The notes below the pieces were generated by a model. It was given only the letters and a program-made list of their open reading frames with translations. It was not told the origin of the DNA and did no database searches. The position numbers and the translations under genes are program-made. Below, in pieces: positions 38,450 to 60,446 of a stretch of 64,000 nt of DNA (position 1 is the first letter of the stretch; each line of letters opens with the position of its first letter). The stretch is from positions 1-64,000 of IMG/VR virus record IMGVR_UViG_3300010356_001624; one strand, 5' to 3'. The stretch is from a virus. Its lineage: Duplodnaviria; Heunggongvirae; Uroviricota; Caudoviricetes.

Positions 38450-41203
38450 ATGGGAAATTTTGTATTCACATCTCCAGGTGTAAAATTTAAAGAACGTGAT
38501 TTAACTTTTGTGACACGTAATGTAGGAATAACAACATTGGGTTTAGTTGGCGAAACTATGAAAGGACCTGCTTTTGAACCTGTTTATATTGAAGATAAAC
38601 AACAATTTAAGGAAATATTTGGAAACCAATCAACCAAAAGAATGGATGGTAATTTACAATACCAATTACCCTATGTTGCTAATGCATATTTAAACGAATC
38701 AAATCAACTATGGGTTACCAGAGTATTGGGTTTAAGTGGTTATGATGCGGGAAATGCTTGGATGTTAACATTAAGTGCTGGATTAGACCCTGATAGTATT
38801 AATATTGTATCAACAATTACTGATAATACAAGTTTAACTGATAATACTTATTATGGTCATAATATCTATTTTAATGGACAAACTGGTACAATAAAAAGTG
38901 GTTATACAAAAAATAATATTAATAACACATTTTCACAAACCGTATATGATTATTATGTTGAAGATTATCAAGAAGGTGGTGATTCTGGTATTCTATATAC
39001 TGCAACCACTTACACAGGTAAATCATACATCAACTATGAAAATATGGTATTGGCAATAATTAGAAGTAATGGTGATTCTAAAATTCCTATTAATGAACCA
39101 CAAAAAACAAAATTTTATACAAAAAATCTTAAAATAAAGAATAATAAAACATTATTTGATATTGGTGATTTATATGGAAGATTTGATATTGAAGTTGTGT
39201 TTGAAGAAAATGGTATAGATAAAACTGAAACATATACGGTTTCATTAAATCCTGATGATGCTAGTTTTCTACCAAATGTTATTGGTAATAAACCAAAAAG
39301 TAAAAAAACAAAAATTTGGGTACAAGAAGTATATCCTGAATTGATGAAAAAACTAAAAACAGATGATTTAGGATATGGTATTAATACTCAAGTAATAACA
39401 GGTAGTTCAACTAATTTTACTGATAGTTTTAATTCTCAATTTCGAACACCAGAAACCCCTTGGGTAGTATCACAAGTTAAGGGTAATGTAGTTGATAGAT
39501 TATTTAAATTTATCAGTATTAGTGATGGTAATGCTGCTAATGAAGAAATAAAAATTTCAATTGAAAATATAGACCCAACAAGTTTAACATTTGATGTAAT
39601 AATTCGTAGTTTTTATGATACTGATGATAATGTTAATATTCTTAAATCATTCATTAAATGTAGTATGATTAAAGAATCAAACAACTATATTGGTAAAAAA
39701 ATTGGTACTATTGATGGTGAATATCAATTAAAAAATAATTATATTATGGTTGAAATTGCTGATAATATTTCTGATGGAGTATTTCCTGCTGGATTTGAAG
39801 GGTATTATTTAAATGATTATAGCACAAAATCAACAGGGGATAATACAACAACAGGTATTTCACCAACAATATTTTATAAAAGGTCATATTTAGTAAGAGA
39901 AGATGTAAAAAAAGCATATTTAGGTATTTCAGAAAAAGGATATGGTACAAACAATGGATTTAATCAAAATATGTTTAACTATAATGGTTATTTTGAATCA
40001 AGTCCATATGTTACTGGATTTACTAAATCTAAAGGATTTCATATGGATATAACTGCTACTGCCATAACCAATACTTCATTTGTTGGTGAATTTGATTGTG
40101 GTATGGATGTTTTTCAAACATATAAAGACATTGATAATCCTAACAATAAATATAATAATATTAAAACAAGAAAATTTACTTTAGTTCCCGCAGGTGGATT
40201 TGATGGTTGGGATGTTCATCGTATTTCACGTTCTAATACTGATGGATATCAACAAGGTGGCATATATAGTGGTTATCCGAACAATCCTTTATTTCCACCA
40301 ACAAATGATTTTCAAGCATGGCAAATGGCAATAGATACTTTTGCTAATCCTGAAGAAGTTACCATAAATTTATTTGCAACTCCTGGTATTAATTGGGCTG
40401 ACCATCAATTATTAGTAAAAGATACAATTGAAATGATTGAAGAAAAAAGAGCAGATAGTTTATATGTTATTGATTCTCCTGATATCGGAATTGAATTTAG
40501 TGTCGGTAATAGTCGTAATGCAGATGTTGATAATGCTGAATCTTATAAAGAAGCATTAGATTTAACAGAAATAGATAGTAGTTATTCTTGTACTTATGCT
40601 CCTTGGATTCAAATTCAAGACACACAAAATATTTCTGATATTTACATTCCACCAACTGGTGAAGTTTTACGTGCAATGGCATATACTGATAAGGTTAATT
40701 TTCCTTGGTATGCCCCTGCTGGTTTAAATCGTGGTGCAATTAATGCAAAACAACCAAAATATAAATTAAGTCTTGAAGCACGTGATATTCTTTATAGTGG
40801 AAGAATTAATCCAATTGCATATTTTTCAGACGTTGGTACTGCAATTTTTGGTCAAAAAACATTAAAGAAAAAAGAAGGTGCGTTAGATAGAATTAATGTT
40901 CGTAGATTACTTCTTCGAATTAAAGTTTTAATTTCTAACATTGCTGTTAGATTATTATTTGAACAAAACGACCAAGATGTTATTAACGAATTCTTGGCTA
41001 AAGCAAATCCTGCTTTAGCAGCAATAAAAAGAGAAAGAGGTTTATATGATTTTAAAATAAAAATGGATGATACTAATAATACCCCAGAAACACGTGATAG
41101 AAATGAACTATATGGTGAAATATTTTTAAAACCAACACGTACTCTTGAATATATTGGTATTACATTTACAATTACACCTTCAGGTGCATCTTTCGAAGAA
41201 TAA
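38450..41203 (+). CDS. contractile tail sheath protein
   Basis: The N-terminus SPGVKFKERDLTFVTRNVGITTLGLVGETMKGPAFEPVYIEDKQQFKEIFG matches the sheath N-terminal signature (PGVY..E.D......T...VG...KGP......S..eF...FG). The C-terminal DRINVRRLLLRIK...FEQND matches the conserved sheath C-terminal domain. Confidence 0.9.
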   Translation: MGNFVFTSPGVKFKERDLTFVTRNVGITTLGLVGETMKGPAFEPVYIEDKQQFKEIFGNQSTKRMDGNLQYQLPYVANAYLNESNQLWVTRVLGLSGYDAGNAWMLTLSAGLDPDSINIVSTITDNTSLTDNTYYGHNIYFNGQTGTIKSGYTKNNINNTFSQTVYDYYVEDYQEGGDSGILYTATTYTGKSYINYENMVLAIIRSNGDSKIPINEPQKTKFYTKNLKIKNNKTLFDIGDLYGRFDIEVVFEENGIDKTETYTVSLNPDDASFLPNVIGNKPKSKKTKIWVQEVYPELMKKLKTDDLGYGINTQVITGSSTNFTDSFNSQFRTPETPWVVSQVKGNVVDRLFKFISISDGNAANEEIKISIENIDPTSLTFDVIIRSFYDTDDNVNILKSFIKCSMIKESNNYIGKKIGTIDGEYQLKNNYIMVEIADNISDGVFPAGFEGYYLNDYSTKSTGDNTTTGISPTIFYKRSYLVREDVKKAYLGISEKGYGTNNGFNQNMFNYNGYFESSPYVTGFTKSKGFHMDITATAITNTSFVGEFDCGMDVFQTYKDIDNPNNKYNNIKTRKFTLVPAGGFDGWDVHRISRSNTDGYQQGGIYSGYPNNPLFPPTNDFQAWQMAIDTFANPEEVTINLFATPGINWADHQLLVKDTIEMIEEKRADSLYVIDSPDIGIEFSVGNSRNADVDNAESYKEALDLTEIDSSYSCTYAPWIQIQDTQNISDIYIPPTGEVLRAMAYTDKVNFPWYAPAGLNRGAINAKQPKYKLSLEARDILYSGRINPIAYFSDVGTAIFGQKTLKKKEGALDRINVRRLLLRIKVLISNIAVRLLFEQNDQDVINEFLAKANPALAAIKRERGLYDFKIKMDDTNNTPETRDRNELYGEIFLKPTRTLEYIGITFTITPSGASFEE

Positions 41204-41669: not shown

Positions 41670-42158
41670 ATGGGTGATATGTTAATAAAAGTGCCAATGC
41701 AACACGAACCAAAAAGAAAAAATAGATATTTTGCTCATTTTGGTACTGATATTGGTATTGAAACTTGGGCAATTCGTAAATTTAAAAGACCTTCAATGAA
41801 AATAAATAAAATTGAAATACCATACATGAATGAACAGAATTATGTTGCGGGTAGATATACATGGGATTCGGTTAATGTTACTTTTCTTGACCCAATCGGT
41901 CCTTCTTCCTCACAAATTCTCATGGAATGGGTTCGTTTACATGCAGAATCCATAACTGGTCGTATGGGTTATGCTGCTGGTTATAAAAAAACCATAACAT
42001 TAGAATCGTTAGACCCAACGGGTATTGCTATTGAAAAATGGACACTTGAAGATTGTCAAATTATTAGTATTGATTTTGGTGATAATGATTATAGTAGTGA
42101 TGACCTAACTGAAATTTCATTAGAATTACAACCTTGGAGATGTATTCTTAATATGTAA
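41670..42158 (+). CDS. tail tube protein (T4 gp19-like)
   Basis: Follows the sheath gene; 162 aa. KINKIEIPYMNEQNYVAGRYTWDSVNVTFLD and LELQPW resemble T4 gp19 KIPVGFMNRKINVAGDRTFDDWTVTVMND and LALDYWE. Confidence 0.72.
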   Translation: MGDMLIKVPMQHEPKRKNRYFAHFGTDIGIETWAIRKFKRPSMKINKIEIPYMNEQNYVAGRYTWDSVNVTFLDPIGPSSSQILMEWVRLHAESITGRMGYAAGYKKTITLESLDPTGIAIEKWTLEDCQIISIDFGDNDYSSDDLTEISLELQPWRCILNM

Positions 42159-43126: not shown

Positions 43127-43130
43127 ATTA

Positions 43131-43334: not shown

Positions 43335-43338
43335 ATTT

Positions 43339-43746
43339 TTATTGTATTATACCATATCCTTTTGTTATCGTAATTGTTGAACCATATACTGAAACAGGAC
43401 CTGCTGGTGATATTCCCGCAGCAGATAATGTTATTCCTGGTGGTATAGCAACACTAATAATTGCATCAGTTTGAAGTGCTTTAATTATTTCTTCAACTCT
43501 AATTTTTTCCATAATTTCATCAGGATTTGCATTGCCATTTGGTAATACACCAATTGGTAATCCTGCTTCACTTTTTCTTTTAATAATTTCATGTGCAATT
43601 TTACTTGCAGATAAACCACCACGTTGTGGAACACCAACCAAAATTAATGGTGTTGGTATTGGTGGTGGACTTCCAATTGATGATAATTTTAAAATTTTAG
43701 TAAAACCACCAATAATAGAATCAATATTGGTATAATCAATATTCAT
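43339..43746 (-). CDS. hypothetical Pro/Gly-rich protein, possibly a baseplate component
   Basis: ORF upstream of the spike gene on the same strand. Confidence 0.4.
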   Translation of the reverse strand: MNIDYTNIDSIIGGFTKILKLSSIGSPPPIPTPLILVGVPQRGGLSASKIAHEIIKRKSEAGLPIGVLPNGNANPDEIMEKIRVEEIIKALQTDAIISVAIPPGITLSAAGISPAGPVSVYGSTITITKGYGIIQ

Positions 43747-43924
43747 TATATTTATTTTAATGTTTTTAATTTTTTTACATTAACCCATTTCCAACCCAAT
43801 ATTAATCTTGTTAATATTTTTCTAACTAAATTAGGTTTAGAAGTTGTAGCCATTTGTGTACCATTAACATTACCATCAATTAAATACACACCAACTATTT
43901 GTTTATTAACTTTTTGGTCTATAA

Positions 43925-45262
43925 TCATAATATTTTAGATTTTATTGTTGAAACTAATGACATAAGACTATTTTCCCAAGATTCTAATCTTTCTTTCATT
44001 CGTTCTTTTATTTCTGGTTTAATTAATTTAACTAAATATTTAACAACTAAAGCAAAAATAAATGCACCTACAATAAGCATAATTTCTTTTTTCATACAAA
44101 AAATAATTCTTTTCCATTTTTTTAAATCATCTTTTGCTTTTTCTAACATAACTTCACCATTATTAACAATAGCACTATATATTGCCATTAACATTCTTAC
44201 TTGTGGTGCTGTTGTAACTGCTTCTAATAATTTAAGAATAATTGTTTTTATAAATTTAACAAAAAAACCGTCCTTAAAACTTCTTTTATCGGAATCATCA
44301 GAAGTATTTATGCTATTTTCCATTATATCACTAACAATATTACCAACTTCATTAGGATTTTTATTAGAATCATTTATATCCACCATCATTTTTTGTAATG
44401 ATTCCATTGGTAATTCACCATAATATACTTCGTATTCAATTTCTTCAGGTATAAAACCTTGAACTATTTTACAATTAATATCATAAGTTACTAAACCATT
44501 AGAAATTTGTTCCGCTTCTAAATCTAAATCAGGATAATTTTCTATATTAACATCATATGGATTATCTTCATCATTTAAAACATTTTCTAATATTTTTTCA
44601 GTTAAAAGTTCATCTAAAACCTCTTCTTTTGTTTTATTTTGTGATTTAGATAATGTTCCAAATAATTTATCCATTGCATTGCCAACAATTTCATCTGAAT
44701 TTATTATATTTGTATTATCAATAAAATTATTAAAATAATCACCAACATTTACATCTATAGGCTTTAATAAAAAACTATCATTATCAGGATTATAATTTAC
44801 TAATGTATTGTGACAAGGAATATTTGAACTTGGATTATTAATGGCATTTCTTAACATTCTATCACCATTATTATTCGAATCACCATACAATAAATTTCCA
44901 CCCTTTTCTTCATCTGTTGGCAATACTTTTAATTTTTTTTTACTATCGAGAGTTTTTACCTTAACATTTACATCAAATTCTGGTAATGAGTTATCGGCAT
45001 TTGATTGAACAAATTGTTTTTTTAATCCACTTTTTAATTGAGATTCTGAATTATTTAATATATCAACAAGAAAAGAACCAATTAAAAATTTTAATGCTTC
45101 AGTTCCTGCAATTGCTTTTAATACATCCAACATAAATGAAATAGAATCTTTAGAATTATTAACAGAAGAATAACTATCTTTTACTTCTGGTTTATTTCCA
45201 GATTTAGAAGAAAATGCTTTAATGTCTGAAAAGACATTTCTTTTATTGTTAATTCTACTCAT
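43925..45262 (-). CDS. hypothetical protein with a C-terminal hydrophobic region
   Basis: 445-aa ORF. Confidence 0.45.
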   Translation of the reverse strand: MSRINNKRNVFSDIKAFSSKSGNKPEVKDSYSSVNNSKDSISFMLDVLKAIAGTEALKFLIGSFLVDILNNSESQLKSGLKKQFVQSNADNSLPEFDVNVKVKTLDSKKKLKVLPTDEEKGGNLLYGDSNNNGDRMLRNAINNPSSNIPCHNTLVNYNPDNDSFLLKPIDVNVGDYFNNFIDNTNIINSDEIVGNAMDKLFGTLSKSQNKTKEEVLDELLTEKILENVLNDEDNPYDVNIENYPDLDLEAEQISNGLVTYDINCKIVQGFIPEEIEYEVYYGELPMESLQKMMVDINDSNKNPNEVGNIVSDIMENSINTSDDSDKRSFKDGFFVKFIKTIILKLLEAVTTAPQVRMLMAIYSAIVNNGEVMLEKAKDDLKKWKRIIFCMKKEIMLIVGAFIFALVVKYLVKLIKPEIKERMKERLESWENSLMSLVSTIKSKIL

Positions 45263-45635
45263 TACTTTCTTTTCTTTTACGTTCTATTTCTTTTGCAACA
45301 AATGATAATAATTCATTTCTTCTTGCATCAGTAACATCACCCTTTTCTTCATCATCAGAAGATGTTTTTTCGGTTTTTTTCTCAAAAACAACTTCTTTAA
45401 GATATTTAAGTAACATTATTTTTTGGTCTTGATTTTTTGCTTCAGCAGCAATAAGTTTAACAATTTGGTCACCAATAGCAGCAACTTCTCCATTGTCTTT
45501 TACTTTTAATTCCCATTTAGTAAATAATCTAGTGATTTTTGCTTTAATATTATGGGATTCATTATATATTTCTTGAAGTAGTTTATTAACACTTTCTTCA
45601 TCAAATTTTAATTCTTTACGTTTAGGTCTTGCCAT
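45255..45635 (-). CDS. hypothetical basic/acidic small protein
   Basis: ORF only. Confidence 0.35.
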   Translation of the reverse strand: MARPKRKELKFDEESVNKLLQEIYNESHNIKAKITRLFTKWELKVKDNGEVAAIGDQIVKLIAAEAKNQDQKIMLLKYLKEVVFEKKTEKTSSDDEEKGDVTDARRNELLSFVAKEIERKRKESNE

Positions 45636-45679
45636 AATTATTAGTTTTAGTACATATAAATAGTAATAATTAAAATTTA

Positions 45680-46540
45680 TTAATCATCATATATTTCTTT
45701 TTTTTCAAAAAAATAAATATCTTTAAATGGTTTTATTCCCATTCTTATTTCTTTTGTGTTTAATCCTGTTTGTTCTTTTAAAAATAATAGAATTTTATTT
45801 TTTGTAAATTTATTTGTTATTTTTTTATTATAATTACCTTCTGGTGTTTCTTCCATAAATAATTCTTGCCAATTTGATAAAATATTTATTATAGCATCCC
45901 CAACAATAATTTCATTTTTTTTTAAATTTTTATCGTTTTCTAATTTATTTTGAATTTTTTTTATAATATTATTAATTAATATTTCTAATTTATTAAGATA
46001 ATCAATATCCATTTCATAAATATAGTCATTTTCTTTATTAATTTCTTCTATATATTCATCGTAGCATAAATTAACCATCTTATCGTTATATGTTTTTTTA
46101 CTATGGTCTTTATAGTAATTACGAACAATTGTTTGACAATAACTATATGCTTTAGAACAGAAAATTCTATATTTAATATTTTCATTATTATTTTTTAACG
46201 AAAGTAATTTTTCATCAGCATTTTTTTTATATAAGAATCTATAACCATCACCCAATTTAATCCATTTTTCATCATGATAAAATTCAATAATATATGGTTT
46301 ATATTTAACCATTTGGTCAATCATATGGCTAAGAGCATTTGATTCAATTTCTTCCATTTCATAATTACCAATATGTATTGGATATCTTCTTAATATTGAC
46401 TGTATCATTTTTCTAAATGGTTCTATTAAAATCTCATTATAAATTCTATTTTTTTCTTCTTTAGAATTTGATTTAATATAATTTATAACAGCCCTTTCTT
46501 CTTTTTCACCAAAATATTGATTAGTTTCTTCTTTTTCCAT
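45680..46540 (-). CDS. hypothetical protein; weak resemblance to a sigma-70 region-2-like (T4 gp55-type) late sigma factor
   Basis: EILIEPFRKMIQSILRRYP...EMEEIESNALSHMIDQMVKYKP has the spacing of sigma region 2.1-2.2. Low-confidence pattern match only. Confidence 0.3.
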   Translation of the reverse strand: MEKEETNQYFGEKEERAVINYIKSNSKEEKNRIYNEILIEPFRKMIQSILRRYPIHIGNYEMEEIESNALSHMIDQMVKYKPYIIEFYHDEKWIKLGDGYRFLYKKNADEKLLSLKNNNENIKYRIFCSKAYSYCQTIVRNYYKDHSKKTYNDKMVNLCYDEYIEEINKENDYIYEMDIDYLNKLEILINNIIKKIQNKLENDKNLKKNEIIVGDAIINILSNWQELFMEETPEGNYNKKITNKFTKNKILLFLKEQTGLNTKEIRMGIKPFKDIYFFEKKEIYDD

Positions 46541-46640
46541 TCAATAAAAAACATTAAAAATAATATGATATTTTCACATATTTTTCATATTCATTTTTTA
46601 TTATATATTTATATTTAAATAAATTTATAAATAAAAATGT

Positions 46641-47462
46641 TTATTTTTCTTGAAGTTTACTTATATCAATTTCTCTATCTGTAGTGAAATTAGACTCTTT
46701 AAACGCAGTTTCAAACCAAAATTTTCGTTCATCCATTGGCATATTTTTTAAATATCCATCAAATAAACTACCTTCACGATTAATTAAATGTCTATATCCG
46801 ATTTTTGGTATTGCAAATATTTTAGATGCATTATTTAATGCTCTAAGAATAAATTCATACATAAAAGTTAGTTTTATGTTTCTTTTATATCTACCCAAAT
46901 TAATAAATTCAGATTTTTTTATTGCAGCACCACTTAATTTAAAATCAGTATATTGTTTTATTGAATTTAAATTCAAATATCCCAATTCACCATTTTCACC
47001 AACAAATTGTTGTGACCAAACCATTTCATTAGTTAATTTAATACCTTTATTTTCATTTGTTACTTCAATCATCATTATTAAAAAAATATCAATGTTGGGA
47101 TATGCTTTTACATATTCATTAATATTTTTTAAATACGTTAACCCCAATTCGTCATCAAATTCAAGAACAGTAAAATAATCAGTATTAACACTATCAACAG
47201 CAAGATTTACCTGAGATTGATAATCAGTATTTCCATTATTTTTTATTAGTTTAAAATTATAATTAAAATATTTTTCTTTAATAAAATTATTAATTTCATT
47301 TTCTATTGTTGATGAATAAACAATTAAAACGTCTGGTTTTTCAACTTCTTGTTGATTTATAATTGATTCAATCGCTTTATTTAAATATGTTGAAATATTA
47401 TCATTAAATTCATGTATTGGAATTATTATTGATGTACTATTCATTTTCTTTAGTATTTTCAT
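46641..47462 (-). CDS. family-2 (GT-A fold) glycosyltransferase-like protein
   Basis: The N-terminus SIIIPIHEFNDNISTYLNKAIESIINQ matches the GT2 N-terminal pattern, and FDDE is a candidate DxD motif. Confidence 0.55.
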   Translation of the reverse strand: MKILKKMNSTSIIIPIHEFNDNISTYLNKAIESIINQQEVEKPDVLIVYSSTIENEINNFIKEKYFNYNFKLIKNNGNTDYQSQVNLAVDSVNTDYFTVLEFDDELGLTYLKNINEYVKAYPNIDIFLIMMIEVTNENKGIKLTNEMVWSQQFVGENGELGYLNLNSIKQYTDFKLSGAAIKKSEFINLGRYKRNIKLTFMYEFILRALNNASKIFAIPKIGYRHLINREGSLFDGYLKNMPMDERKFWFETAFKESNFTTDREIDISKLQEK

Positions 47463-48615
47463 TATTGTTATTTTTATTAGATTCTAATGCGGATTTAAAT
47501 AAATTAATTCTTTCGTTTACATATCCACTATAAATCTCAACCAATTCTTTTTCAGAATTATCTTGATTGTATTTTGATGCAATCTTATCCATATTATCAT
47601 AAATTTCTTTAGATATATTATCATCTAAAAATTTGACTAATGTATCTGCAATTAAAATTGGTAAATCATAATAATTATTAGTCCAAACGCCACAATTATC
47701 AATTGCTTTTATTGGTTTATCACCATCTTCACTTCTTTCAACCATATATTCAGGAATAATATCTGGTTTTAAACAAATAGGAACAACGCCTGATTTCATA
47801 CATTCAAGAGGAAATGTACCAAAACTTGAGATTCTATCAATCCAAACAGCAGCAAAATTTTCACTCAATCTTTTTGCAAAATCAACCCTACGCATTTGTT
47901 GTGGTGGTTTACTTTTAGTTAACATTGGGTCAAAAGTAATCCAATTAAATTCAGGGTATTTAAGAAAAAACAATTTAACTAATTTACTAATTTCATTTGG
48001 ATTTCTACCAATAATTGATACTACTGGTTTTTTTGGTCTTTCTGTTTTTTCAAAATAATCAGGAATTCCTATTGTATATGATTTAGTTTTATATTTTTTT
48101 CCAAAATATAATTCAATAAATTCCTCAAGTGTTTTTGAAGTAGTAATAATATTATTAATACCAAACATTTCCCAATTTATACCTGGTATTAAACTATTTA
48201 ACATATAATCAATAGATTGTAAAAATCCTATTCTTAAACAAGGTAAATTTTTAGTATGTTCCATGATATTTGAATAAACTTCAGGAATTATCATAATATC
48301 TTCAGGACCGACACTTAATTTATTATTTTCATCCATTGATAAATGTTTAATATCGGTTAATTCACTCTCAATCCAATTAGGTTTTACATAATCATTTTTT
48401 TCTGTGAATATAATTACATCATATCCCATTCTTTTTACAACAGTGGCATGAAAATATAACTCATATATACTTGCTACTGGTGATTGTGATTCGGGTATAC
48501 AAAAAATAAATTTAGATTTTTTATTTTCTAAATTATTTAAAGAAATTTTAATTTTTTCAAATTTTTCTTTTTCAACATCTTCAATTGATTTTTCAATATT
48601 TTTATCCATTTTCAT
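47437..48615 (-). CDS. GT-B fold glycosyltransferase-like protein (GT4-like)
   Basis: ECMKSGVVPI resembles the E-x7-E/EAMAxGxPVI motif of group-1 glycosyltransferases. Confidence 0.45.
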   Translation of the reverse strand: MKMDKNIEKSIEDVEKEKFEKIKISLNNLENKKSKFIFCIPESQSPVASIYELYFHATVVKRMGYDVIIFTEKNDYVKPNWIESELTDIKHLSMDENNKLSVGPEDIMIIPEVYSNIMEHTKNLPCLRIGFLQSIDYMLNSLIPGINWEMFGINNIITTSKTLEEFIELYFGKKYKTKSYTIGIPDYFEKTERPKKPVVSIIGRNPNEISKLVKLFFLKYPEFNWITFDPMLTKSKPPQQMRRVDFAKRLSENFAAVWIDRISSFGTFPLECMKSGVVPICLKPDIIPEYMVERSEDGDKPIKAIDNCGVWTNNYYDLPILIADTLVKFLDDNISKEIYDNMDKIASKYNQDNSEKELVEIYSGYVNERINLFKSALESNKNNNNENTKENE

Positions 48616-49354
48616 TTTTTTTATATTTTATTATTTTTTCAAAATCCTTATTTTCTATTAATTCTGCTATTTGTAAAATTTCCATTGAATATGAATTAAA
48701 CTTTTCATTATATGGTCTTTTTACTTTTATTAGTTTTTTAAACCAAGGTGTTCCTAATTTTAATATTTCTGGGTCTGTTGTTATTAAAATATCAATATTA
48801 TTCCACATTTCAATAGATTTTTTTACAAATCGAATGTTTTCAAATCTACTTTTAATTTTACTTAAAAAGAATAATGTGGGTGGTATACTAAATCTATTTT
48901 CAACAGAAAATAATGTAAAATTAACAGTATCACAATATTTATCATAAAATTTATTACCATCAACATCCATATTTCTATACATCATCGGTGCTGAACCATG
49001 TATTTCAAATAAGTAATCTTCATACATGAATCTATTATAAACTTCTTTTGATGTTAATTTTATTTTATTCTCCTTTTTAAATAATAAAAAATCAGCAGGT
49101 GCTTCATTTTTATCATTCAATTGATATTCTAATGGACTTATATTTTCTGGAATATCTTCTGGCTCTTTAAGTTCTTTAATTATTTCTTCAACATCATTAA
49201 ATTTATAATTATTAAAGAAATCATAAACATATTCCTGTTCTTTTGGAACACCATCTAAACCAAATTCTTCAACATAATACTTATCAAATTGTAACCATTT
49301 CGCCCTTAATATTTCATCAATATCAATTCCAACATTTTTTTTATTTATTTTCAT
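48602..49354 (-). CDS. hypothetical protein
   Basis: ORF only. Confidence 0.4.
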   Translation of the reverse strand: MKINKKNVGIDIDEILRAKWLQFDKYYVEEFGLDGVPKEQEYVYDFFNNYKFNDVEEIIKELKEPEDIPENISPLEYQLNDKNEAPADFLLFKKENKIKLTSKEVYNRFMYEDYLFEIHGSAPMMYRNMDVDGNKFYDKYCDTVNFTLFSVENRFSIPPTLFFLSKIKSRFENIRFVKKSIEMWNNIDILITTDPEILKLGTPWFKKLIKVKRPYNEKFNSYSMEILQIAELIENKDFEKIIKYKKNENG

Positions 49355-49619
49355 TTTCTAATTCATTTATTTGATAATTAAGTAAATTATTTAATTTTTT
49401 CATCATTTCATTATGTTCTTTAATTAATGCTTCTTCAGTAACATATCTCGGATTAATACATTCAATTTTAGTATCAATTGTATTTGTTGGTATAACTATT
49501 ATTTCACCTTCAAATCTTTCAGGTGTAATTTTTTTTGTAACTTTTTTTACAAAATCTTCAATATCTGCTAATCTAATATTAGCAACACCAACATAAATAA
49601 CTAAAATCATATTACTCAT
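49341..49619 (-). CDS. hypothetical protein
   Basis: ORF only. Confidence 0.35.
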   Translation of the reverse strand: MSNMILVIYVGVANIRLADIEDFVKKVTKKITPERFEGEIIVIPTNTIDTKIECINPRYVTEEALIKEHNEMMKKLNNLLNYQINELENENK

Positions 49620-49743
49620 TTTTAATTAATATTTTTCTATATATATAATACGTTTTTTTTATAAAAATCTTGAAATTTTTATAATTTTATTTTTTTGTAG
49701 TATTTATAAAAAAAATAATGGTTATTTATAAAAATTTATAAAA

Positions 49744-50673
49744 ATGTCTGAAGAAAAAAATTTTTCTCAAAAAAAGGGTATTTCTGACCTTCTAAAAAAA
49801 TATAGAAGTCAAAAAGATAATGTTGAAAATGAAAATACAAATCAAATCAACATTCCAAAACCACAAGAAAATACACCTAATTTACAACAATTTAATCATG
49901 AAGAATTTGAAAAAGCCATGTCTAAAGAAACCGACCCAGATTTAATTACAACTTATGAAATTGTTAAATTACCATCTAAAGGTTTATTTTATAAAAATGG
50001 TCTTTCTGAAATAAATGTCGAATATATGACATCAAAAGATGAAGATTTATTAACTACTTCATCATTAATTGAAAGTGGTGTTGTTTTAGACTTACTATTG
50101 AAAAGAAAAATAAAAACACCAAATGTTAATTCAGAAGATTTATTACCAGGTGACCGTAATGCAATTTTACTGTTTTTACGTATAACAAGTTATGGTTCTG
50201 ATTATACTGTTCAAGTAACTGACCCAAGAACAGGTGTTCCATTTAAAACAACAGTTGATTTAACAAAACTTAAATATAAAAAAATTGAAGAAAAACCAAA
50301 CGATAATGGTTTGTTTAGTGTTGATTTACCAATGCGTAAAAAAAATGTACTTTTTAAACTATTAACTGTTGGTGAAGATACAAGAATATATAAAACTGCT
50401 GAATCTTTAAAAGAAGCAAAAAATGAAGAATTTAGTCAGTATTCTACCATGAGATTAGTTGCAAGTATTGTATCAATAGATGGTAATACTAATAAAACAT
50501 ATATTAGTAAGTTTGTTGATGCAATGCCAGCATTGGATGCATACGCAATTCGTAAAAAAATGTTGGATGTTAGTCCTGATGTTGATATGGATTATGTCTT
50601 TACTGCTAAAGATGGATATACTTTCAATGCTAATTTAACAATTGGTTTAGATTTTTTTTTCCCAAGCATCTAG
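49744..50673 (+). CDS. putative tail assembly chaperone (lambda gpG / P2 gpE analogue), 0-frame product
   Basis: Its position immediately upstream of the tape measure gene. A T9 slippery tract (50652-50660) lies 4 codons before its stop, and an open -1 frame continues downstream. Confidence 0.5.
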   Translation: MSEEKNFSQKKGISDLLKKYRSQKDNVENENTNQINIPKPQENTPNLQQFNHEEFEKAMSKETDPDLITTYEIVKLPSKGLFYKNGLSEINVEYMTSKDEDLLTTSSLIESGVVLDLLLKRKIKTPNVNSEDLLPGDRNAILLFLRITSYGSDYTVQVTDPRTGVPFKTTVDLTKLKYKKIEEKPNDNGLFSVDLPMRKKNVLFKLLTVGEDTRIYKTAESLKEAKNEEFSQYSTMRLVASIVSIDGNTNKTYISKFVDAMPALDAYAIRKKMLDVSPDVDMDYVFTAKDGYTFNANLTIGLDFFFPSI

Positions 50674-50861
50674 CGGAAGATTATAAAAAAATGGTAAATG
50701 AAGAAATTTATGTTCTTACTAAACACGCTAAATTTCAAAGCGAATATATTGAAAATATACCCGTTTATCGAAGAAGATATTTTTTATATCTGTTTGAAAA
50801 AGAAATGGAAGAATTAAAAAAACTACAAGAAAAAGAAATCAAAAAAAGACCAAGATTTTAA
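50634..50861 (+). CDS. -1 frame extension, candidate frameshifted C-terminal (GT/E'-like) part of the chaperone. As a stand-alone ORF it is 56 aa (50691-50861).
   Basis: The -1 frame is open from 50634 across the heptamer T TTT TTC (X XXY YYZ) through 50861. The stop is followed by a hairpin and T-run. Confidence 0.4.
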   Translation, partial: FNNWFRFFFPKHLAEDYKKMVNEEIYVLTKHAKFQSEYIENIPVYRRRYFLYLFEKEMEELKKLQEKEIKKRPRF

Positions 50862-50878
50862 AATTTTGGTCTTTTTTT
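50846..50878 (+). terminator. candidate terminator: agaccaa ... ttggtct stem followed by a T-run
   Basis: aaagaccaagattttaaaattttggtctttttttattt; the stem is imperfect in its middle. Confidence 0.4.
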
Positions 50879-50949
50879 ATTTATAATAATCGTAATTTAA
50901 AATTTTATTAAAATTTACCAATAACTATTTATAGTAAAATATTATCACT

Positions 50950-53538
50950 ATGAGCAAAATGTCACCTGAAGAAGTTAGAAAAACATTTGAAGAATATCAA
51001 AAATTAAATAAAGAACTTCAAAAATCAAGAAAATCTTTAATTAATCTTGGTGATTATGAACGTGCTAGAGCAATTACTGTTGAAATTATTGCAAATAATG
51101 AAAAAATTGTAAATCAATTAAAAAATAATACTAAAGGTTTAACAGACGAACAATTAAAACAATACAATAAATTAATTGATGTTCAAAAAGAATTAAATAA
51201 CGAACTTGATAATGAATATAAAAGAAGAAAACATATTATAAGTTCATTAAAACATAGTTTTGATTTATTAGTAAGTGGTTATAAATATTTACAACAACAG
51301 GATAAAATCATAAAAAATACCATTCTTAATCTAGGAATGAGTGGGAACAAAGCAGAATTAATGCGAGGTTCTTTTGAAAGAAGTGCAATGTTTGTTGCTA
51401 GATTGGGTGGTAATCTTGAAGTTATTCAAACCATGATGACTGGATTTGCCGATGAAACAGGTAGGTCACGTGCATTAACATCAGATATGGTTAAGGATAT
51501 TACTGTTATTGGTAAAGGTACTGGTCTTGGAATTGAACAGGCAACTAAACTTTCAGCACAATTTGAAGCAATTGGTATTAATACAAAAGGTGCTTTAGAT
51601 TATGTTCAGGGTGTTGTTGATACTTCTGAAAGAATGGGTGTTAATACCACAAAAGTATTAAAAAATATTACTGATAATTTTAAAAAACTACAAACCTTCC
51701 ATTTTCAACAGGGTGTTAGAGGTTTTAGAGAAATGGCAGAATATGCTGAAAAATTTAAAGTTGATATTTCCGATGCATTAAATTCTGCTGAAATTGCAAG
51801 AACACTTGAAGGGGCTATTGGTATGGTAGCAAATTTACAGGTAATGGGTGGTGAATTTGCTAAATTGGATATGTTTGAAACACTATATTTTGCACGTAAT
51901 GACCCTGCTAAACTTCAAGCAAAAATTGGGGAAATGACAAAGGGTATTGTTACACTTCGTAAAAATAGTGATGGTACTTTTGAAAAATTTATTAGTCCTG
52001 CTGACCGTGATAGGCTTGCTGCTGCTGGTAAAGCATTGGGTATTACTACGGATAAAATGACAGAAATGGCATTAAGAGCATTTGATATCGGAAAAATGTC
52101 ACAGGAATTATCTGGTATGGGTTTAACAAATGAACAAAAACAACTAATTGAAGGTGCTGCATTTTTTAATCAACAAACTGGTAAATTTCAAGTTCAACTT
52201 GGTGAAGATATGAAAAATATCAGTGAATTAACAATACAACAGGCTAAATCTTTTGCACAAGAACAAAAACTATTAAAAGACCGTGCAAAAGAAGCAATGA
52301 CTTTTGATGAAACATTTAAAGCAACAATAGAAATGTTAAAAGCAGGATTATTACCATTATTAAATAATATAAATAAAGCATTGTTATGGATAAGTAAGTA
52401 TTCAGATAAATTATTTGAAGGAAAGGGTATTGTTATTGCTGCTACCACATTATTTGCTGGTGCTAAATTATTTTTTCTTTCTTCAAAACTTCTTAATAGA
52501 GCATTTGATAATTACATATCATATAATAAATTAAGTTTTAGAAATTTAGCAGCAACTAATTCTGGTGGTCTTTCTAGTCTTTTTAGTAAAAGTGTTGGTA
52601 TTGGTGATTCATTAACACCAACAACAGGAAAAGGAAGTAGTGGTTTAGCAGATATGAGAAGGGGTATTGGTGCTGGTGCTGAAGCAAAGGGTATTGGAAT
52701 GAAAAGACTTGGTACTGGTATTGGTGCTGGTGCTGAAGCAAAGGGTATTGGAATGAAAAGACTTGGTACTGGTGCAGGTATTGGTGCTGCTGCTTTAGGA
52801 ATTGGTGGCGGTGTTGCACTTGCTGCTGTTGGTATTAGTAAACTTGCCGATTCTATGAGCAAATTGGATGAAAAACAATTATCTGTTTTAAAAGGAATTG
52901 CCATGACATTAGCCATTTCGTTTCCTGCTGCTGCTCTTGGTATTGCTATTGCAGGTGCTGCTGGTAAACTTGCTGCTCCAGGATTATATGCACTTAGTGT
53001 TGCTGCTTTAGGAATAGGTGCTGCTGTTGGTATTGCTGCTGTTGGAATAGGAATTATGGCAAAAGGAATTGGTGAAATGATTGAAAAAAGTAAAGGTGCT
53101 GGTGATGCAATGCTTAGTGTTGGACTTGGTGTTAGTGCATTATCATTAGCAATGATGGGTTTTACAGCAGGTGCTTTAGGTTTGGGAGTATTTGCATTAA
53201 CAATGAAAACAATAGCAAAACATGCCGATGCTGTTGAAAAGGTAGGTAATGCTTTTGGTAATATAAAAGCAGTAATGTCTGGAACAAAAGAAGATTTTGA
53301 AGCCGTTGAAAGTGCAGTTAAATTAATTTCAAGTGTGAATACAAATAAAGGTAGTGTATTTGCTGAACTTGCAGCATTATTAAAAACACCTTTAAAAGTA
53401 GAATTTGAAAAAAATACAATACCTATTCAAACTGATGTAACGCTTGAAGTTGATGGTGAAAAATTAATGAATAAATCATTTACGAATAGAATTGCTGTTC
53501 AAAAATCAAATGATGCTAAACTTGGTAAGGTAAATTAA
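50950..53538 (+). CDS. tail tape measure protein
   Basis: 862 aa with a long helical N-terminus, Gly/Ala-rich hydrophobic repeats (GIGAGAEAKGIGMKRLGTG x2, AAVGI...), and a position after the chaperone and before a large tail protein. Confidence 0.78.
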   Translation: MSKMSPEEVRKTFEEYQKLNKELQKSRKSLINLGDYERARAITVEIIANNEKIVNQLKNNTKGLTDEQLKQYNKLIDVQKELNNELDNEYKRRKHIISSLKHSFDLLVSGYKYLQQQDKIIKNTILNLGMSGNKAELMRGSFERSAMFVARLGGNLEVIQTMMTGFADETGRSRALTSDMVKDITVIGKGTGLGIEQATKLSAQFEAIGINTKGALDYVQGVVDTSERMGVNTTKVLKNITDNFKKLQTFHFQQGVRGFREMAEYAEKFKVDISDALNSAEIARTLEGAIGMVANLQVMGGEFAKLDMFETLYFARNDPAKLQAKIGEMTKGIVTLRKNSDGTFEKFISPADRDRLAAAGKALGITTDKMTEMALRAFDIGKMSQELSGMGLTNEQKQLIEGAAFFNQQTGKFQVQLGEDMKNISELTIQQAKSFAQEQKLLKDRAKEAMTFDETFKATIEMLKAGLLPLLNNINKALLWISKYSDKLFEGKGIVIAATTLFAGAKLFFLSSKLLNRAFDNYISYNKLSFRNLAATNSGGLSSLFSKSVGIGDSLTPTTGKGSSGLADMRRGIGAGAEAKGIGMKRLGTGIGAGAEAKGIGMKRLGTGAGIGAAALGIGGGVALAAVGISKLADSMSKLDEKQLSVLKGIAMTLAISFPAAALGIAIAGAAGKLAAPGLYALSVAALGIGAAVGIAAVGIGIMAKGIGEMIEKSKGAGDAMLSVGLGVSALSLAMMGFTAGALGLGVFALTMKTIAKHADAVEKVGNAFGNIKAVMSGTKEDFEAVESAVKLISSVNTNKGSVFAELAALLKTPLKVEFEKNTIPIQTDVTLEVDGEKLMNKSFTNRIAVQKSNDAKLGKVN
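52672..52790 (+). repeat. 57-bp in-frame tandem duplication inside the tape measure gene
   Basis: ggtattggtgctggtgctgaagcaaagggtattggaatgaaaagacttggtactggt occurs twice in tandem. Confidence 0.8.
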
Positions 53539-53994
53539 AAAATAATTTAATAAAAATAAAAACAATAAAAATTTGCAAATGTCAAAAATTTTTTATAACT
53601 TTGCCAAGATTTTTATTTTCAATGTAAAAACAATAAAAAGGTAATATTTATTTATTTCAAATAAAAGTAAATAAAAATTCTATTCAAAATCTTTTTTCGT
53701 TTCTACGAAACAAAATCAAAGTTATAATGTTTATAATTAAATTCTACGAATTTAACAAAAAACTTAGATGAAGGGCATATTATATTCAAAAATTTAAAAT
53801 TTTTTTCATTTAAAAAAATCTTACCATTATAATTCATAATTTAAAAATTAAAAATTATTAACACACCTCAATAAAGGAATTGGTTTAATTCAAAATTAAA
53901 TTTTTCGAAAAAGAATATATTTTCCCAATGTAAAGATAATACATATAAAACAATTTAACAAGTATTTATTAAAAATATATAGGATTATATACCA

Positions 53995-56900
53995 ATGGAT
54001 ATTAATTTACCTGAAAATAGTTCAAATTTAATAAGAAAAGATTATATTATTTATAATGATATAAATTATACTCTTGAAGAATTTCTTAATGTAATTTTAA
54101 ATTTAAATAATTTTGACAATAAAAATAATATCCATTATGGTGATGGTGTTTATACTTTTGATGAATTTATAAATTTTATATTATATAGAAATCTTAAAGA
54201 AAATAGATATAGTTTTGATTTAGATTATAAAGATTATGCTACATCAAGTGCTGGAAATTTATTTAGATTTAATAATGATACTAAATTAGGTAATTTTGGA
54301 AATGCACTTCTTGATGTTATACCTCAATATAATTCATTAAATTTATCAAATACTTTAATTGGTCGTGGAATTGATTTTGGATTATTTGGTAACATAACAC
54401 CATTGGAAAGTATTGGTAGTGTTATGTTAGGTAAACAAATGACATTTAATGCTGTATCACAAGCAGCACGTACTACTGCCGATTATCTACCAAGTATTAA
54501 TATTCAAAATTTATTTACGAATGAACCAATTTTTAGTAAACCTGCTGATTATAGTATTACTAAATTAAATATTACTGGTTTTGATTTTGTTGATAATTTA
54601 TTATCACCATCATTTTATAAATCACAACGTATTGATAGTAATTATGAACATATTATAAACGAAAATGAAATTGTTGATTATACAGGTAAAGGTCAATTAA
54701 ATGAATTGTTTAGACAACTAAATTTTAATTTTTATAAATTTAATTCGTTATATGAATATCGTGTTAAATATAATATAAAAGGACAAAAAGATTTAATTGA
54801 TGAATTGAAAGGAAAAAGATTTGATTTTTTTTATAATCCATATTCAATATTATATGGTTCTGATATGATTAAAACATATTCAGATAAATTACCTGAAACA
54901 TATGCTGGTGCAGAAGAATATGTTTCAGATATTCATGATATATCATTTTTTTATGGTAAAACAACTAATCAAGAGTTAACAGAAATTCCTAAAGATTTTA
55001 TAACTAATTATGATTCTGAAGATGATATTCAAAATAACTTAATTTGGGGTAAGGATGGTGTTGGACAAATTGTACATTTTAATTTAGATAATTCAAGGGA
55101 TAAATATACAAAAGAATTAATTAATAATAATATTGAAAATTTCAAAATTAAAAGAGGTTTACTTGAATATACTAAAAATTTATTAAACGTATCATCTGGT
55201 TTTTATGTTGATATGACCAAAAAAATATATAGAGATTTAAATAAAAGAAGAATATATGGATTTAATGGTTCTCCTGTATGGGAAAAAGAATTAACAAAAT
55301 ATTCATCAAAAAATTTTAAAGGTAGAAAAGAAGGTATTCGTCAGCATAATGCATTGGATAAATATGATAAATTTGTAAAGGCAATTAGGTTTGATGGTAA
55401 TATAGCATATAATAAGAGTGGTAATAATAAAGATTCTGTAATATATAATTCAGTAATGCCAAAAATACATCCAATTAGAGATGATAAAGGAAATGTTGAT
55501 AATAAAAACATGATGTTTAGCATTGAAAATCTTGCTGTTACTGCTGTTAAGGATGAATTAAATAATATTGGTTATATTGATGATGAAGATGGTTCTCAAA
55601 TACCGATAAGTGAGGTAGGACCGTTCAACGGTCGTATTATGTGGTTTCCACCATACGGAATTGAACTTAATGAAACTTCAACAGCAAAATTTGACTCTAC
55701 TGTTATGGTGGGTAGAAATGAACCAATATATACATATATGAATTCAGAAAGAAGTGCAACACTTTCTTTTGTTCTCCTTATTGACCATCCACCTCATTTA
55801 ATTAACTATATGGGTGAAGAAGAATATAAAAAGAAAATTGCTAATTTCTTTGCTTTTGGGGGTGATGATTATTATGAAGATAGTGTTAGTATTAGTGATT
55901 TAACAAAAAGAATTGAAGATATAAAACAAGAAATAGATAATATAAAAAAAGATAATTTAATTAATTCTGGTGAAATAGTTGCTGATGGATTAAATTTAGA
56001 AAATTTACCTTCAATTTATTTTCCAAATGATTATCCAAAAGAAGGTGGGGTTTCAAATGTTATTGATTATATATATAATAATAAATATGAAATAAGTAAT
56101 AAAAATTCTACAATAGAGGGTGATGAAGGTAGTTCAGGATTAAATGACAATATATATGTTTTAAGTGCAGATACATCACAATATAATGCAATTAATGAAA
56201 ATTGTTTATTGAATAAGACATTAAAAGAAGTTTATGTTGATAATAATAATAAAAAGGTTATTGGTATTAAACTTGAAGGTTATGCATCAAGACATGGTGA
56301 TAATATAGATGGTTATAATACAATTTTGGTTGAAAGAAGACTTGAAGCAGCAAAAATTTTTATTTTAAAAAGATTAAATGCATTATTTCCTAATAATGAT
56401 TTTGTTGATGAAGATATTTTTATTGAAATAGTAAATAAAGGTTCTAATTATAGTGATGATGTAGATGATAAAAATATTAATGAAGTAAAAGGTGATAGAA
56501 GGGTTGAATTAAGTTTTGTTCATAATGGAAAAACAATATCTGAAGATGGTACTGTTAGTGACAATCAATATGAATTAGAAATAAAAGAATTAGAAAAAGA
56601 ATTAGAAAATTTATATACAACATTATATAGAGCAAGAAATAGAAAGGATAATATATTTACAGAAAGAACAAAAGAAGATAAAGCGATTTTTGATAATTTT
56701 GAATCAATAAAAACGAATCATTATAAACCCATGTATCATTCTCAAACACCAGAGGATTTTCATAAAAGATTAACGTTTTTACAGCAATGTACTAGACAAG
56801 GTTCTTCAGTTAGAAATAGAAATATAAAAGATAAAGATAATTTAACATCAAAAAATTCAGTTTTTGGTAAGCAACCAATATGTATTTTAAGGGTTGGTGA

Positions 56901-60436: not shown

Positions 60437-60446
60437 TATAATTAAC

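What the first reader, a model, noticed from the sequence alone, without database searches (positions are those of the whole stretch)
49744..50861. Candidate programmed -1 ribosomal frameshift (G/GT-like) in the gene immediately upstream of the tape measure gene
The 309-aa ORF ends 4 codons after a T9 tract at 50652-60, which has the form gat ttt ttt ttc cca = X XXY YYZ. The -1 frame is open from 50634 and continues 56 codons to a stop at 50859-61, followed by a hairpin and T-run. The position, immediately 5' of the tape measure gene, and the geometry, with the slip site just before the 0-frame stop, copy the lambda G/GT, P2 E/E' and Mu gp41/42 arrangement. The alternative explanation is a homopolymer sequencing error that splits a single gene.
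Basis: partly seen in the sequence, partly recalled or inferred. Interest (0 to 1): 0.7.

Follow-up and report, generated by a model that had tools for sequence, protein, structure and literature searches.

The report
Frameshifted tail chaperone in jumbo phage
A giant-phage tail-assembly gene related to T4 gene 26 very probably makes a short and a long protein by slipping back one base on a run of T's just before its stop codon; this is the well-known lambda G/GT trick, so it is ordinary in kind, but it sits in a gene family that databases label "baseplate hub" and do not annotate as frameshifted.

Summary
A T9 tract (50652-50660) lies 4 codons before the stop of a 309-aa ORF. The -1 frame then runs 66 codons to TAA at 50859-61 and is followed by a terminator-like hairpin. 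It is not a sequencing error. Nine independent assemblies carry the identical T9. About 84 diverged relatives (55-66% protein identity) all keep a T8 or T9 tract, the frame break, a 0-frame stop 3-4 codons after the Pro codon, and a conserved -1-frame extension with a coding signature. No read-through version was found. The ORF is a T4 gp26-like protein (PF12322, "baseplate hub"), not a recognised TAC family. It does sit directly upstream of a probable tape measure gene, downstream of sheath and tube. Its predicted fold is closest to the HK97 and YqbN tail assembly chaperones. Best reading is a programmed -1 recoding of the G/GT or P2 E/E+E' type, most likely ribosomal on U_UUU_UUC. Transcriptional slippage on the T-run cannot be excluded. 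Distant relatives reach a homologous extension in the +1 frame. T4 gp26 ends at the same motif but has no extension. Verdict: new member of a known kind, moderate interest.

The parts
49744..50673 (+). 0-frame ORF of 309 aa. It is a T4 gp26-like protein (the short, 'G-like' product).
50652..50661 (+). Slip site: the T9 tract plus C. It contains the in-register heptamers T_TTT_TTT (50652-58) and T_TTT_TTC (50655-61).
   Evidence: The sequence was read directly. GAY TTT TTT TTC CCN is invariant in 81 loci, with T9 in 73 and T8 in 8. L075 adds a further T9. L069 and L070 carry a T8C5 variant. Elsewhere in the gene the Phe codons are 81% TTT and 19% TTC.
50671..50673 (+). 0-frame stop codon TAG. 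It overlaps the conserved Leu-Ala codons (YTA GCN) of the -1 frame.
   Evidence: The stop lies 3 codons after Pro in 80 of 81 loci. It is TAG in 76, TAA in 4 and TGA in 1.
50661..50861 (+). -1-frame extension of 66 codons plus TAA (the 'T-like' domain). The fused product is 372 aa, joined from 49744..50661 and 50661..50861.
   Evidence: Translation is. Codon-position variability in the -1 frame is .137/.050/.301, against .050/.301/.147 when phased in the 0 frame. Adding the extension lengthens the phrog_150 match from profile positions 15-233 to 15-281 of 282. It is predicted to form three helices, pLDDT 76.
50841..50878 (+). Terminator-like hairpin with a T tail. It overlaps the stop codon of the extension.
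   Evidence: One search found 1 such site, against 0.4 expected from shuffles. Sub-threshold Rfam hits fall only on this hairpin.
50950..53538 (+). Probable tape measure protein, 862 aa.
   Evidence: Its position matches the annotated TMP genes in L002, L091 and L092. It has a coiled-coil-like N-terminus and a long Gly/Ala-rich hydrophobic region. Similarity to the Flavobacterium phage TMP is weak, E 0.02. Homologues are 817-894 aa. No family or PDB hit was found.
38450..41203 (+). Tail sheath gene (context).
   Evidence: phrog_23 at 9e-61.
41670..42158 (+). Tail tube gene (context). It is separated from the gp26-like gene by a 7.4-kb block of minus-strand ORFs (42215-49619).
   Evidence: phrog_4542 at 4e-29. 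ORF list.

Best explanation
The gene at 49744 encodes the tail assembly chaperone of a jumbo (~340 kb) contractile-tailed phage and is a homologue of T4 gp26.

Most ribosomes terminate at TAG 50671-73 and make a 309-aa protein. A fraction shifts to the -1 frame inside the T-run and adds a 66-residue helical domain, giving a 372-aa protein. The shift is most likely tandem tRNA-Phe slippage on U_UUU_UUC (50655-61) or U_UUU_UUU (50652-58). Because F-F-F-P is written in both frames, the long product has the same sequence wherever in the run the shift occurs.

By analogy with lambda G/GT and P2 E/E+E', the shared part would hold the tape measure protein and the extension would recruit the tube or hub, at a ratio fixed by the slip frequency.

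Shown here: the conserved frame break, the coding status of the extension, the synteny and the fold resemblance. Inferred: ribosomal rather than transcriptional slippage, the binding partners and the product ratio.
For: 1. It is not an error. Nine independent assemblies (JGI, NCBI, ENA, Logan) are 100% identical across the site, including the T9. In the window, 41 of 61 homopolymers of 8 or more bases sit inside intact ORFs.

2. It is conserved.
- 81 loci at 55-66% protein identity and 24-40% GC keep GAY TTT TTT TTC CCN, a 0-frame stop 3-4 codons after the Pro codon, and a 62-75 aa -1-frame extension.
- Three further loci fit the pattern. Two of them (L069, L070) carry a T8C5 variant in which only the -1 frame still reads FFFP.

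3. The extension is translated in the -1 frame starting at the T-run.
- It has a third-position variability signature.
- The 10 codons between the run and the internal Met are conserved while varying at synonymous sites.
- That Met is absent or not ATG in 7 of 63 unique sequences.
- In at least 14 loci a -1-frame stop abuts the T-run, so these codons can be reached only by shifting within it.

4. No fused ORF exists among the 120 best homologues or among 44 homologues of the extension.

5. The synteny is that of a TAC. The order sheath, tube, gp26-like, extension, TMP is seen in Mel-JY01, Flavobacterium immuto, LIS04 and HSE3 and in the window.

7. There is precedent. P2 slips at TTTTTTG without a downstream structure (PMC3091744). 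T7G and T7C sites are predicted in P2-like phages (PMC3931495).

8. Distant relatives without any homopolymer still need a frame change, here +1. In those lineages this points to the ribosome.
Against: - No conserved downstream stem-loop or pseudoknot (alifold gave no structure; window z about 0).
- No Rfam element.
- No conserved upstream SD-like element was seen.
- A run of 8 or more T is also an excellent RNA polymerase slippage site, and every member keeps at least T8.
- The efficiency of U_UUU_UUC in the unknown host is unknown.
- No Pfam Phage_TAC family matches at E<=1.
- The TMP identity of the next gene rests on position and composition only.
- There is no expression data of any kind.
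Confidence: 0.62

Rival explanations
1. Transcriptional slippage. RNA polymerase (host or phage) adds one extra U on the T8-T9 template run. A subset of mRNAs then reads straight through into the extension, as in Shigella mxiE. The two proteins are the same, but the step at which they diverge differs.
For: Every member keeps at least T8. No downstream RNA structure is conserved. Exactly one added base is what is needed to fuse the frames. The review PMC5009743 describes slippage of this kind yielding an extended MxiE product.
Against: The ninth T varies at close to the background rate: GAC occurs in 8 of 81 sites, against 20% GAC elsewhere in the gene. A perfect in-register X_XXY_YYZ heptamer is kept in all three site variants. 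Relatives with a +1 extension have no homopolymer in the overlap, for example L002, L003 and L092. According to the papers read, lambda and P2 use ribosomal frameshifting at the equivalent position.
Confidence: 0.27
2. Two separate genes. The extension would be made on its own as a 56-aa protein from ATG 50691, by independent initiation or by termination-reinitiation after TAG 50671, with no frame change.
For: Gene callers predict this ORF in 44 clusters. A GGTGA-like sequence lies about 10 nt upstream of the ATG in the clade consensus.
Against: The start is not conserved: ATG in 56 of 63 unique sequences, TTG in 2, TTA in 2, and GTT, ATA and ATT in 1 each. The 10 codons upstream of it are conserved as protein in the -1 frame and show synonymous variation. 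The synonymous sites of the T-run are invariant. In Mel-JY01 and the Flavobacterium phage the conserved core of the extension lies upstream of any ATG.
Confidence: 0.06
3. An artefact or a dead gene. Either a homopolymer miscount (true T10) splits one 372-aa gene, or a frameshift mutation has made a pseudogene. DNA-level phase variation of the tract would be a related case.
For: Homopolymers are error-prone, and T10 would restore a single ORF.
Against: Nine independent assemblies agree. About 84 diverged loci carry the same break. No fused homologue exists. Other long homopolymers in the window do not break ORFs. The extension is still under purifying selection.
Confidence: 0.02

Closest known systems
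Phage P2 E / E+E' (and P2-like phages with predicted T7G or T7C sites)
   Same: A contractile-tailed phage. The gene lies between the tube gene and the tape measure gene. The -1 shift occurs on a T-run followed by one other base, just before the 0-frame stop. No downstream RNA structure is present (PMC3091744; PMC3931495).
   Different: P2 E is 91 aa and E+E' is 142 aa. Here the products are 309 and 372 aa, with no sequence similarity to E. The run here is T8-T9 followed by C, and the conserved FFFP motif is written in both frames.
Phage lambda G / GT tail assembly chaperones
   Same: A short and a frameshift-extended long product are made from a gene 5' of the tape measure gene. The arrangement is conserved despite sequence divergence (PMC5009743).
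   Different: The lambda slip site is not a homopolymer (G GGA AAG, from my own knowledge). Lambda is a siphovirus. The functions of the two domains are shown experimentally for lambda and only inferred here.
T4 gp26 (PF12322, 'baseplate hub subunit' or 'hub assembly chaperone')
   Same: Sequence family membership. T4 gp26 aligns to the same C-terminal FF motif and stops 3 residues after it. It is listed as a hub assembly chaperone in PMC3004832.
   Different: T4 gene 26 is followed directly by gene 25 on the other side of the hub cluster. It is not next to gene 29, and no extension homologue was found in the 13-kb hub region. T4 is cited as the exception to G-T frameshifting (PMC5009743). The window clade has lost the two CxxC pairs present in most members.
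HK97 tail assembly chaperone (PDB 2ob9) and B. subtilis YqbN (PDB 3klu)
   Different: They cover only 85-91 residues of a 309-aa protein. The scores are modest (Foldseek E 0.65). No sequence-level relationship was found.
Shigella mxiE-type transcriptional slippage
   Same: A homopolymeric run. One added base fuses two overlapping frames into an extended product (PMC5009743).
   Different: That is a regulator gene, not a phage tail gene. The polymerase mechanism is demonstrated there and untested here.

Membership tests
G/GT-type frameshifted tail assembly chaperone | The gene lies between the major tail/tube gene and the tape measure gene. | tested here: met
   In the window, sheath is at 38450-41203 and tube at 41670-42158. 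A 7.4-kb minus-strand block follows, then the gene, then the 862-aa probable TMP. In relatives the order tube, gp26-like, TMP is contiguous.
G/GT-type frameshifted tail assembly chaperone | A second ORF overlaps the 3' end in another frame, has no conserved start of its own, and the overlap contains a slippery sequence. | tested here: met
   The overlap is 50634-50670 and holds T_TTT_TTT and T_TTT_TTC. In at least 14 relatives the -1 frame opens exactly at the T-run. The internal Met is not conserved.
G/GT-type frameshifted tail assembly chaperone | The two-frame arrangement is conserved in diverged relatives. | tested here: met
   About 84 loci of the clade. Nine more distant phages have the extension in the -1 or +1 frame.
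G/GT-type frameshifted tail assembly chaperone | The downstream gene is the tape measure protein. | tested here: inconclusive
   Supported only by position, size (862 aa; homologues 817-894 aa), composition and one weak BLASTP match at E 0.02. No Pfam, PHROG, NCBIfam, PDB or phage tblastn hit.
G/GT-type frameshifted tail assembly chaperone | Homology to a recognised TAC family. | tested here: inconclusive
G/GT-type frameshifted tail assembly chaperone | Both products are made at a fixed ratio, both are needed for tail assembly, and both are absent from virions. | not testable with these tools
   This needs proteomics and genetics.
T4 gp26 / PF12322 T4_baseplate | Pfam match above the gathering threshold. 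| tested here: met
   41.2 bits against 24.5, covering residues 70-288. Precomputed PF12322 hits are on nearly all homologues.
T4 gp26 / PF12322 T4_baseplate | End-to-end alignment with T4 gp26, including the C-terminal FF motif. | tested here: met
   Alignment A2. A single-sequence hhalign of T4 gp26 against the clade profile was not significant, so the link rests on the Pfam model and the multi-lineage alignment.
T4 gp26 / PF12322 T4_baseplate | T4-type gene neighbourhood (25-26 / 51-27-28-29). | tested here: not met
   The window gene is followed by the probable TMP, and the genes upstream are on the other strand.
Programmed transcriptional slippage site | A homopolymeric A or T run of about 8-9 or more at the frame junction. 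| tested here: met
   T9 here, and T8-T9 in all relatives.
Programmed transcriptional slippage site | mRNA length heterogeneity at the run. | not testable with these tools
   No transcript data are available.

The most novel reading that the evidence does not exclude
The whole T4 gp26 family (PF12322, annotated 'baseplate hub subunit') is the tail assembly chaperone of large contractile-tailed phages.
- Its members almost always stop within 0-6 residues of an F-[FWY]-P motif.
- Outside the T4-like phages, a homologous helical C-terminal domain of about 60-90 aa is reached by recoding at that motif.
- The direction of the recoding has switched between lineages: -1 on T-runs in this jumbo-phage clade, LR756511 and Xoo-sp13; +1 in Mel-JY01, Flavobacterium immuto, LR756508, GXN1, SP-15/LIS04 and HSE3.
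- T4, cited as the one exception to G-T frameshifting, would then have kept only the 'G' half.

None of the public records examined annotates this, and I found no paper that states it.
Probability: 0.55. Interest if true: 0.6.

Novelty: new member of a known kind. Interest (0 to 1): 0.42.

Why it matters
For annotation: these genes are currently filed as 'baseplate hub' plus a separate small 'hypothetical protein' in isolate genomes (SP-15, LIS04, HSE3, GXN1, Mel-JY01, immuto). In thousands of metagenomic jumbo-phage contigs they are unnamed or 'hypothetical'. Both products and the function are therefore mislabelled.

For phage biology: the finding ties T4 gp26, a long-unexplained 'hub assembly chaperone' missing from the virion, to the near-universal G/GT tail-length machinery. 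It would explain why T4 looked like the exception.

For recoding: one protein family appears to use -1 and +1 shifts at the same protein motif, with the motif FFFP written in both frames. That makes it a natural system for asking how the direction of a frameshift evolves.

None of this changes the kind of mechanism, which is textbook.

Tried and rejected
- Downstream stimulator RNA. RNAalifold on 60 unique sequences gave an empty consensus. The window alone has z about 0, and the mean z over all sequences is -1.2. Rfam at E<=1 hit only the terminator hairpin, below threshold.
- Tape measure identity by families. Pfam (also at E<=10), PHROGs, NCBIfam, PDB sequences and tblastn against phages all gave nothing.
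- blastn of 49000-54000 against phages: no match.
- The search for related loci on metagenome contigs failed with a tool error.
- hhalign of T4 gp26 against the clade profile: not significant.
- Search for an extension homologue in the T4 hub region: none.
- TAG reassignment. Reading through TAG adds only 8 codons here, and the window's long ORFs fit the standard code, so this was rejected.
- Literature. Searches on gp26 with tail assembly chaperone, frameshift and PF12322 found no paper linking gp26-like proteins to G/GT frameshifting. The library is incomplete: Xu et al. 2004, Christie et al. 2002 and Taylor et al. 2016 are not held.

Full report
**1. The observation**

The window has 24% GC. 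The ORF at 49744-50673 (309 aa) ends ...GLDFFFPSI*. Its last codons are gat ttt ttt ttc cca agc atc tag, so the T9 tract lies at 50652-50660 and the stop at 50671-73.

The -1 frame is closed by TAA at 50631-33. It is then open to TAA at 50859-61. A -1 shift in the T-run gives a 372-aa protein...GLDFFF|PKHLAEDYKKMVNEEIYVLTKHAKFQSEYIENIPVYRRRYFLYLFEKEMEELKKLQEKEIKKRPRF. A terminator-like hairpin with a T tail lies at 50841-50878.

Three details in the finding need correcting:
- The extension is 66 codons from the slip point.
- The junction has three Phe, not four.
- Only T10 (or T7) would fuse the frames. T8 would not.

The heptamer by itself means nothing in this AT-rich DNA. There are 103 in-frame T_TTT_TTY or A_AAA_AAR heptamers in long open frames of the window. 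Only this one is followed by a -1 frame that runs 62 codons past the 0-frame stop. The next best runs 7 codons, and the median -1 run is 3 codons.

**2. It is not a sequencing error**

- The 56-aa ORF that gene callers predict inside the extension occurs on more than 20 contigs. Nine places were fetched from JGI, NCBI (GCA_035385645.1), ENA and Logan assemblies. All are 100% identical to the window over 330-650 nt, including the T9.
- Other long homopolymers in the window do not break genes. Of 61 runs of 8 or more bases, 41 lie inside intact open frames.
- A search with the fused 372-aa protein found 1,226 homologues. The best 120 (60-99% identity) are all 297-320 aa long and cover at most 83% of the query, so none reads through.
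- A search with the extension alone found 44 proteins, all 49-91 aa.

**3. Conservation in relatives**

Eighty-five related loci came from IMG/VR contigs of up to about 365 kb, at 55-66% protein identity and 24-40% GC.

In 81 loci, the window included (62 unique contexts), the site is invariably GAY TTT TTT TTC CCN. It is T9 in 73 and T8 (with GAC) in 8. The 0-frame stop comes 3 codons after Pro in 80 of 81, and is TAG in 76. The -1 frame continues for 62-75 codons with a strongly conserved sequence, P..LAGEYKKMV.EEIYILTKHAKFQADYIE.LPIYRRRHFL.LL.KE....

Three further loci fit the pattern. L075 has the standard T9. L069 and L070 have GAT TTT TTT TCC CCC. There the 0 frame reads DFFSP, while the -1 frame still reads FFFP.

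Elsewhere in the same genes Phe is 81% TTT and 19% TTC. At the site, the three Phe codons are TTT TTT TTC in all 60 unique sequences analysed.

Codon-position variability (positions 1/2/3):

| Region and phasing | Pos 1 | Pos 2 | Pos 3 |
|---|---|---|---|
| Upstream, 0 frame | .157 | .112 | .296 |
| Downstream, -1 frame | .137 | .050 | .301 |
| Downstream, phased as 0 frame | .050 | .301 | .147 |

The extension is therefore a coding sequence under purifying selection in the -1 frame.

**4. The extension is reached from the upstream ORF, not made separately**

- The ten codons between the T-run and the internal Met (P-x-x-L-A-G-E-Y-K-K) are conserved as protein. They vary at synonymous sites (GAA 25 / GAG 23, GCG 38 / GCA 15, TAT 54 / TAC 8). 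Their variability is .119/.059/.256.
- The Met codon is ATG in only 56 of 63 unique sequences.
- In at least 14 loci a -1-frame TGA abuts the T-run. There the conserved FFFP..LAGEYKK codons can be read only by a ribosome that changes frame between the start of the run and the 0-frame stop seven codons later.

F-F-F-P is encoded in both frames (TTT TTT TTC CCN and TTT TTT TTT CCC). This explains why the C after the run is invariant. It also means the product is the same wherever in the run the slip happens.

**5. What the gene is**

The 309-aa protein matches PF12322 'T4_baseplate' (2e-10, above the gathering threshold) and phrog_150 'baseplate hub'. With the extension fused on, the phrog_150 match lengthens from profile positions 15-233 to 15-281 of 282.

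T4 gp26 aligns with the family to its very end (...RGLKEFFELL*) and stops three residues after the FF motif.

A profile search of 1.84 billion cluster representatives found 2,820 members. Of the best 150, 92 reach the end of the profile, and 91 of those stop 0-6 residues later. A stop right after F-[FWY]-P is therefore a property of the whole family.

**6. Context**

The window encodes:
- large terminase (3104-5122), portal (5203-7209) and major head protein (16354-18036);
- tail sheath (38450-41203) and tail tube (41670-42158);
- a 7.4-kb block of minus-strand ORFs of unknown function;
- the gp26-like gene;
- after 88 nt containing the hairpin, an 862-aa ORF.

That ORF has a coiled-coil-like N-terminus and a long Gly/Ala-rich hydrophobic segment. 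It has a weak match to an annotated tape measure protein (E 0.02). Its homologues are tightly clustered in length, 817-894 aa. No family model hits it.

In Mel-JY01, Flavobacterium phage immuto, Listeria phage LIS04 and Bacillus phage HSE3 the order is sheath, tube, gp26-like, a 110-240-nt gap or small ORF, then a large gene. That gene is annotated as a tape measure in immuto, LIS04 and HSE3 and as a hypothetical protein in Mel-JY01. [quoted passage not shown]

**7. Distant relatives**

All nine non-T4 relatives examined have a homologous extension in another frame:

| Frame of extension | Relatives |
|---|---|
| -1 | LR756511; Xoo-sp13 (site gcT TTT TTT att) |
| +1 | Mel-JY01, immuto, LR756508, GXN1, LIS04, HSE3 |

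- An HMM of the window-clade extension finds the Mel-JY01 +1-frame piece at E=5.6e-8. It ranks the LR756508, HSE3 and GXN1 pieces next among 1,585 six-frame pieces.
- A fused +1 query from HSE3 covers 95-100% of LIS04, SP-15 and GXN1 in two pieces.
- Several +1 overlaps contain no homopolymer.
- These records annotate 'baseplate hub' plus 'hypothetical protein', never a frameshift.
- T4 has no room for an extension, because gene 25 starts at the stop of gene 26. No extension homologue occurs in the 13-kb hub region.
[quoted passage not shown] PMC3004832 lists gp26 as a hub assembly chaperone.

**8. Mechanism**

I put recoding of some kind at about 0.9.

*Ribosomal -1 slippage on U_UUU_UUC or U_UUU_UUU is favoured (about 0.6).*
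- An in-register perfect heptamer survives in all three site variants.
- The ninth T varies at close to the background rate.
- The +1 relatives have no polymerase-slippery run.
- The closest analogue, P2 E/E+E', frameshifts at TTTTTTG without a downstream structure (PMC3091744). T7C sites are predicted in P2-like prophages (PMC3931495).

*Transcriptional slippage (about 0.27) is not excluded.*
- Every member keeps at least T8.
- No stimulatory RNA structure is conserved.

The roles of the two domains are inferred by analogy with lambda (PMC5009743). On that analogy the shared part binds the tape measure and the extension recruits tube or hub.

**9. Verdict**

This is a real, conserved, programmed frame change of the G/GT or P2 E/E+E' kind. 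In kind it is already known.

What appears not to be recorded is that the gene belongs to the T4 gp26 'baseplate hub' family. The same holds for the family-wide pattern of stopping at the same motif with an out-of-frame extension. This is true of the annotations I saw and of the searchable literature.

Noticed in passing
L001 4674-4964; L002 4632-4937; L003 4707-5009; L004 4653-5021; L091 5617-5930; L092 5677-5901: In six distant relatives (Mel-JY01, Flavobacterium immuto, LR756508, GXN1, LIS04, HSE3) the homologous extension is in the +1 frame, not -1. Several of the overlaps have no homopolymer. Candidate +1 sites are CCC_N (GXN1, HSE3), CTT_T (immuto) and TTT_T (Mel-JY01, LIS04). GenBank annotates these as 'baseplate hub' plus 'hypothetical protein'.
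   Followed up: partly
L069 and L070, about 4890-4915: Variant slip site GAT TTT TTT TCC CCC (T8C5). The 0 frame reads DFFSP but the -1 frame keeps FFFP. Only the T_TTT_TTT heptamer is in register here. Two independent samples carry it.
   Followed up: partly
window 52663-52773: A perfect 54-nt tandem repeat (2.1 copies, 18 aa: IGAGAEAKGIGMKRLGTG) inside the probable tape measure gene. Near-identical relatives of 844 aa differ from the 862-aa form by exactly one unit, which suggests repeat-number variation in a tail-length ruler.
   Followed up: partly
window 42215-49619, minus strand: A 7.4-kb block of eight minus-strand ORFs with no family hits. It interrupts the otherwise conserved order sheath, tube, chaperone, tape measure, which is contiguous in the isolate phages examined.
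   Followed up: no
window 18125-19582: A 485-aa ORF directly after the major head protein gene. It combines a Mom-like DNA modification domain (residues 21-261) with a homing-endonuclease domain (GIY-YIG/HNH type, residues 245-484).
   Followed up: no
window 57628-63772: Downstream of the tail and baseplate genes lies a cluster of modification-type genes: a 704-aa double glycosyltransferase, two or three methyltransferases and a cysteine dioxygenase-like protein.
   Followed up: no
window 20158-23328, minus strand: A 1056-aa helicase (phrog_1967) whose N-terminal 250 residues also hit a large-terminase ATPase family (phrog_36964, 1.8e-8).
   Followed up: no
L097 (NCBI GCA_035385645.1, DAOOKN010000003.1) and names: Contigs of this phage clade are deposited inside MAGs labelled 'archaeon', 'Dehalococcoidia bacterium' and 'Candidatus Paceibacterota bacterium'. 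These are probably binning artefacts, so the labels should not be read as hosts.
   Followed up: no
alignment A2, columns about 220-250 and 385-395: Most gp26-family members, T4 included, have two CxxC pairs, which looks like a zinc ribbon. The window clade, Mel-JY01 and the Flavobacterium phage have lost them.
   Followed up: no
window 50841-50887: The terminator-like hairpin between the chaperone gene and the probable tape measure gene overlaps the extension's stop codon. It is followed by promoter-like hexamers (consensus level only). A transcription stop after the tail chaperone gene was also reported for Listeria phage CKA15 (PMC12282133).
   Followed up: partly
window 28451-28462: The longest homopolymer in the window (T12). 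It lies in a short + strand open frame that overlaps the 3' part of a minus-strand 409-aa ORF. Its status was not examined.
   Followed up: no
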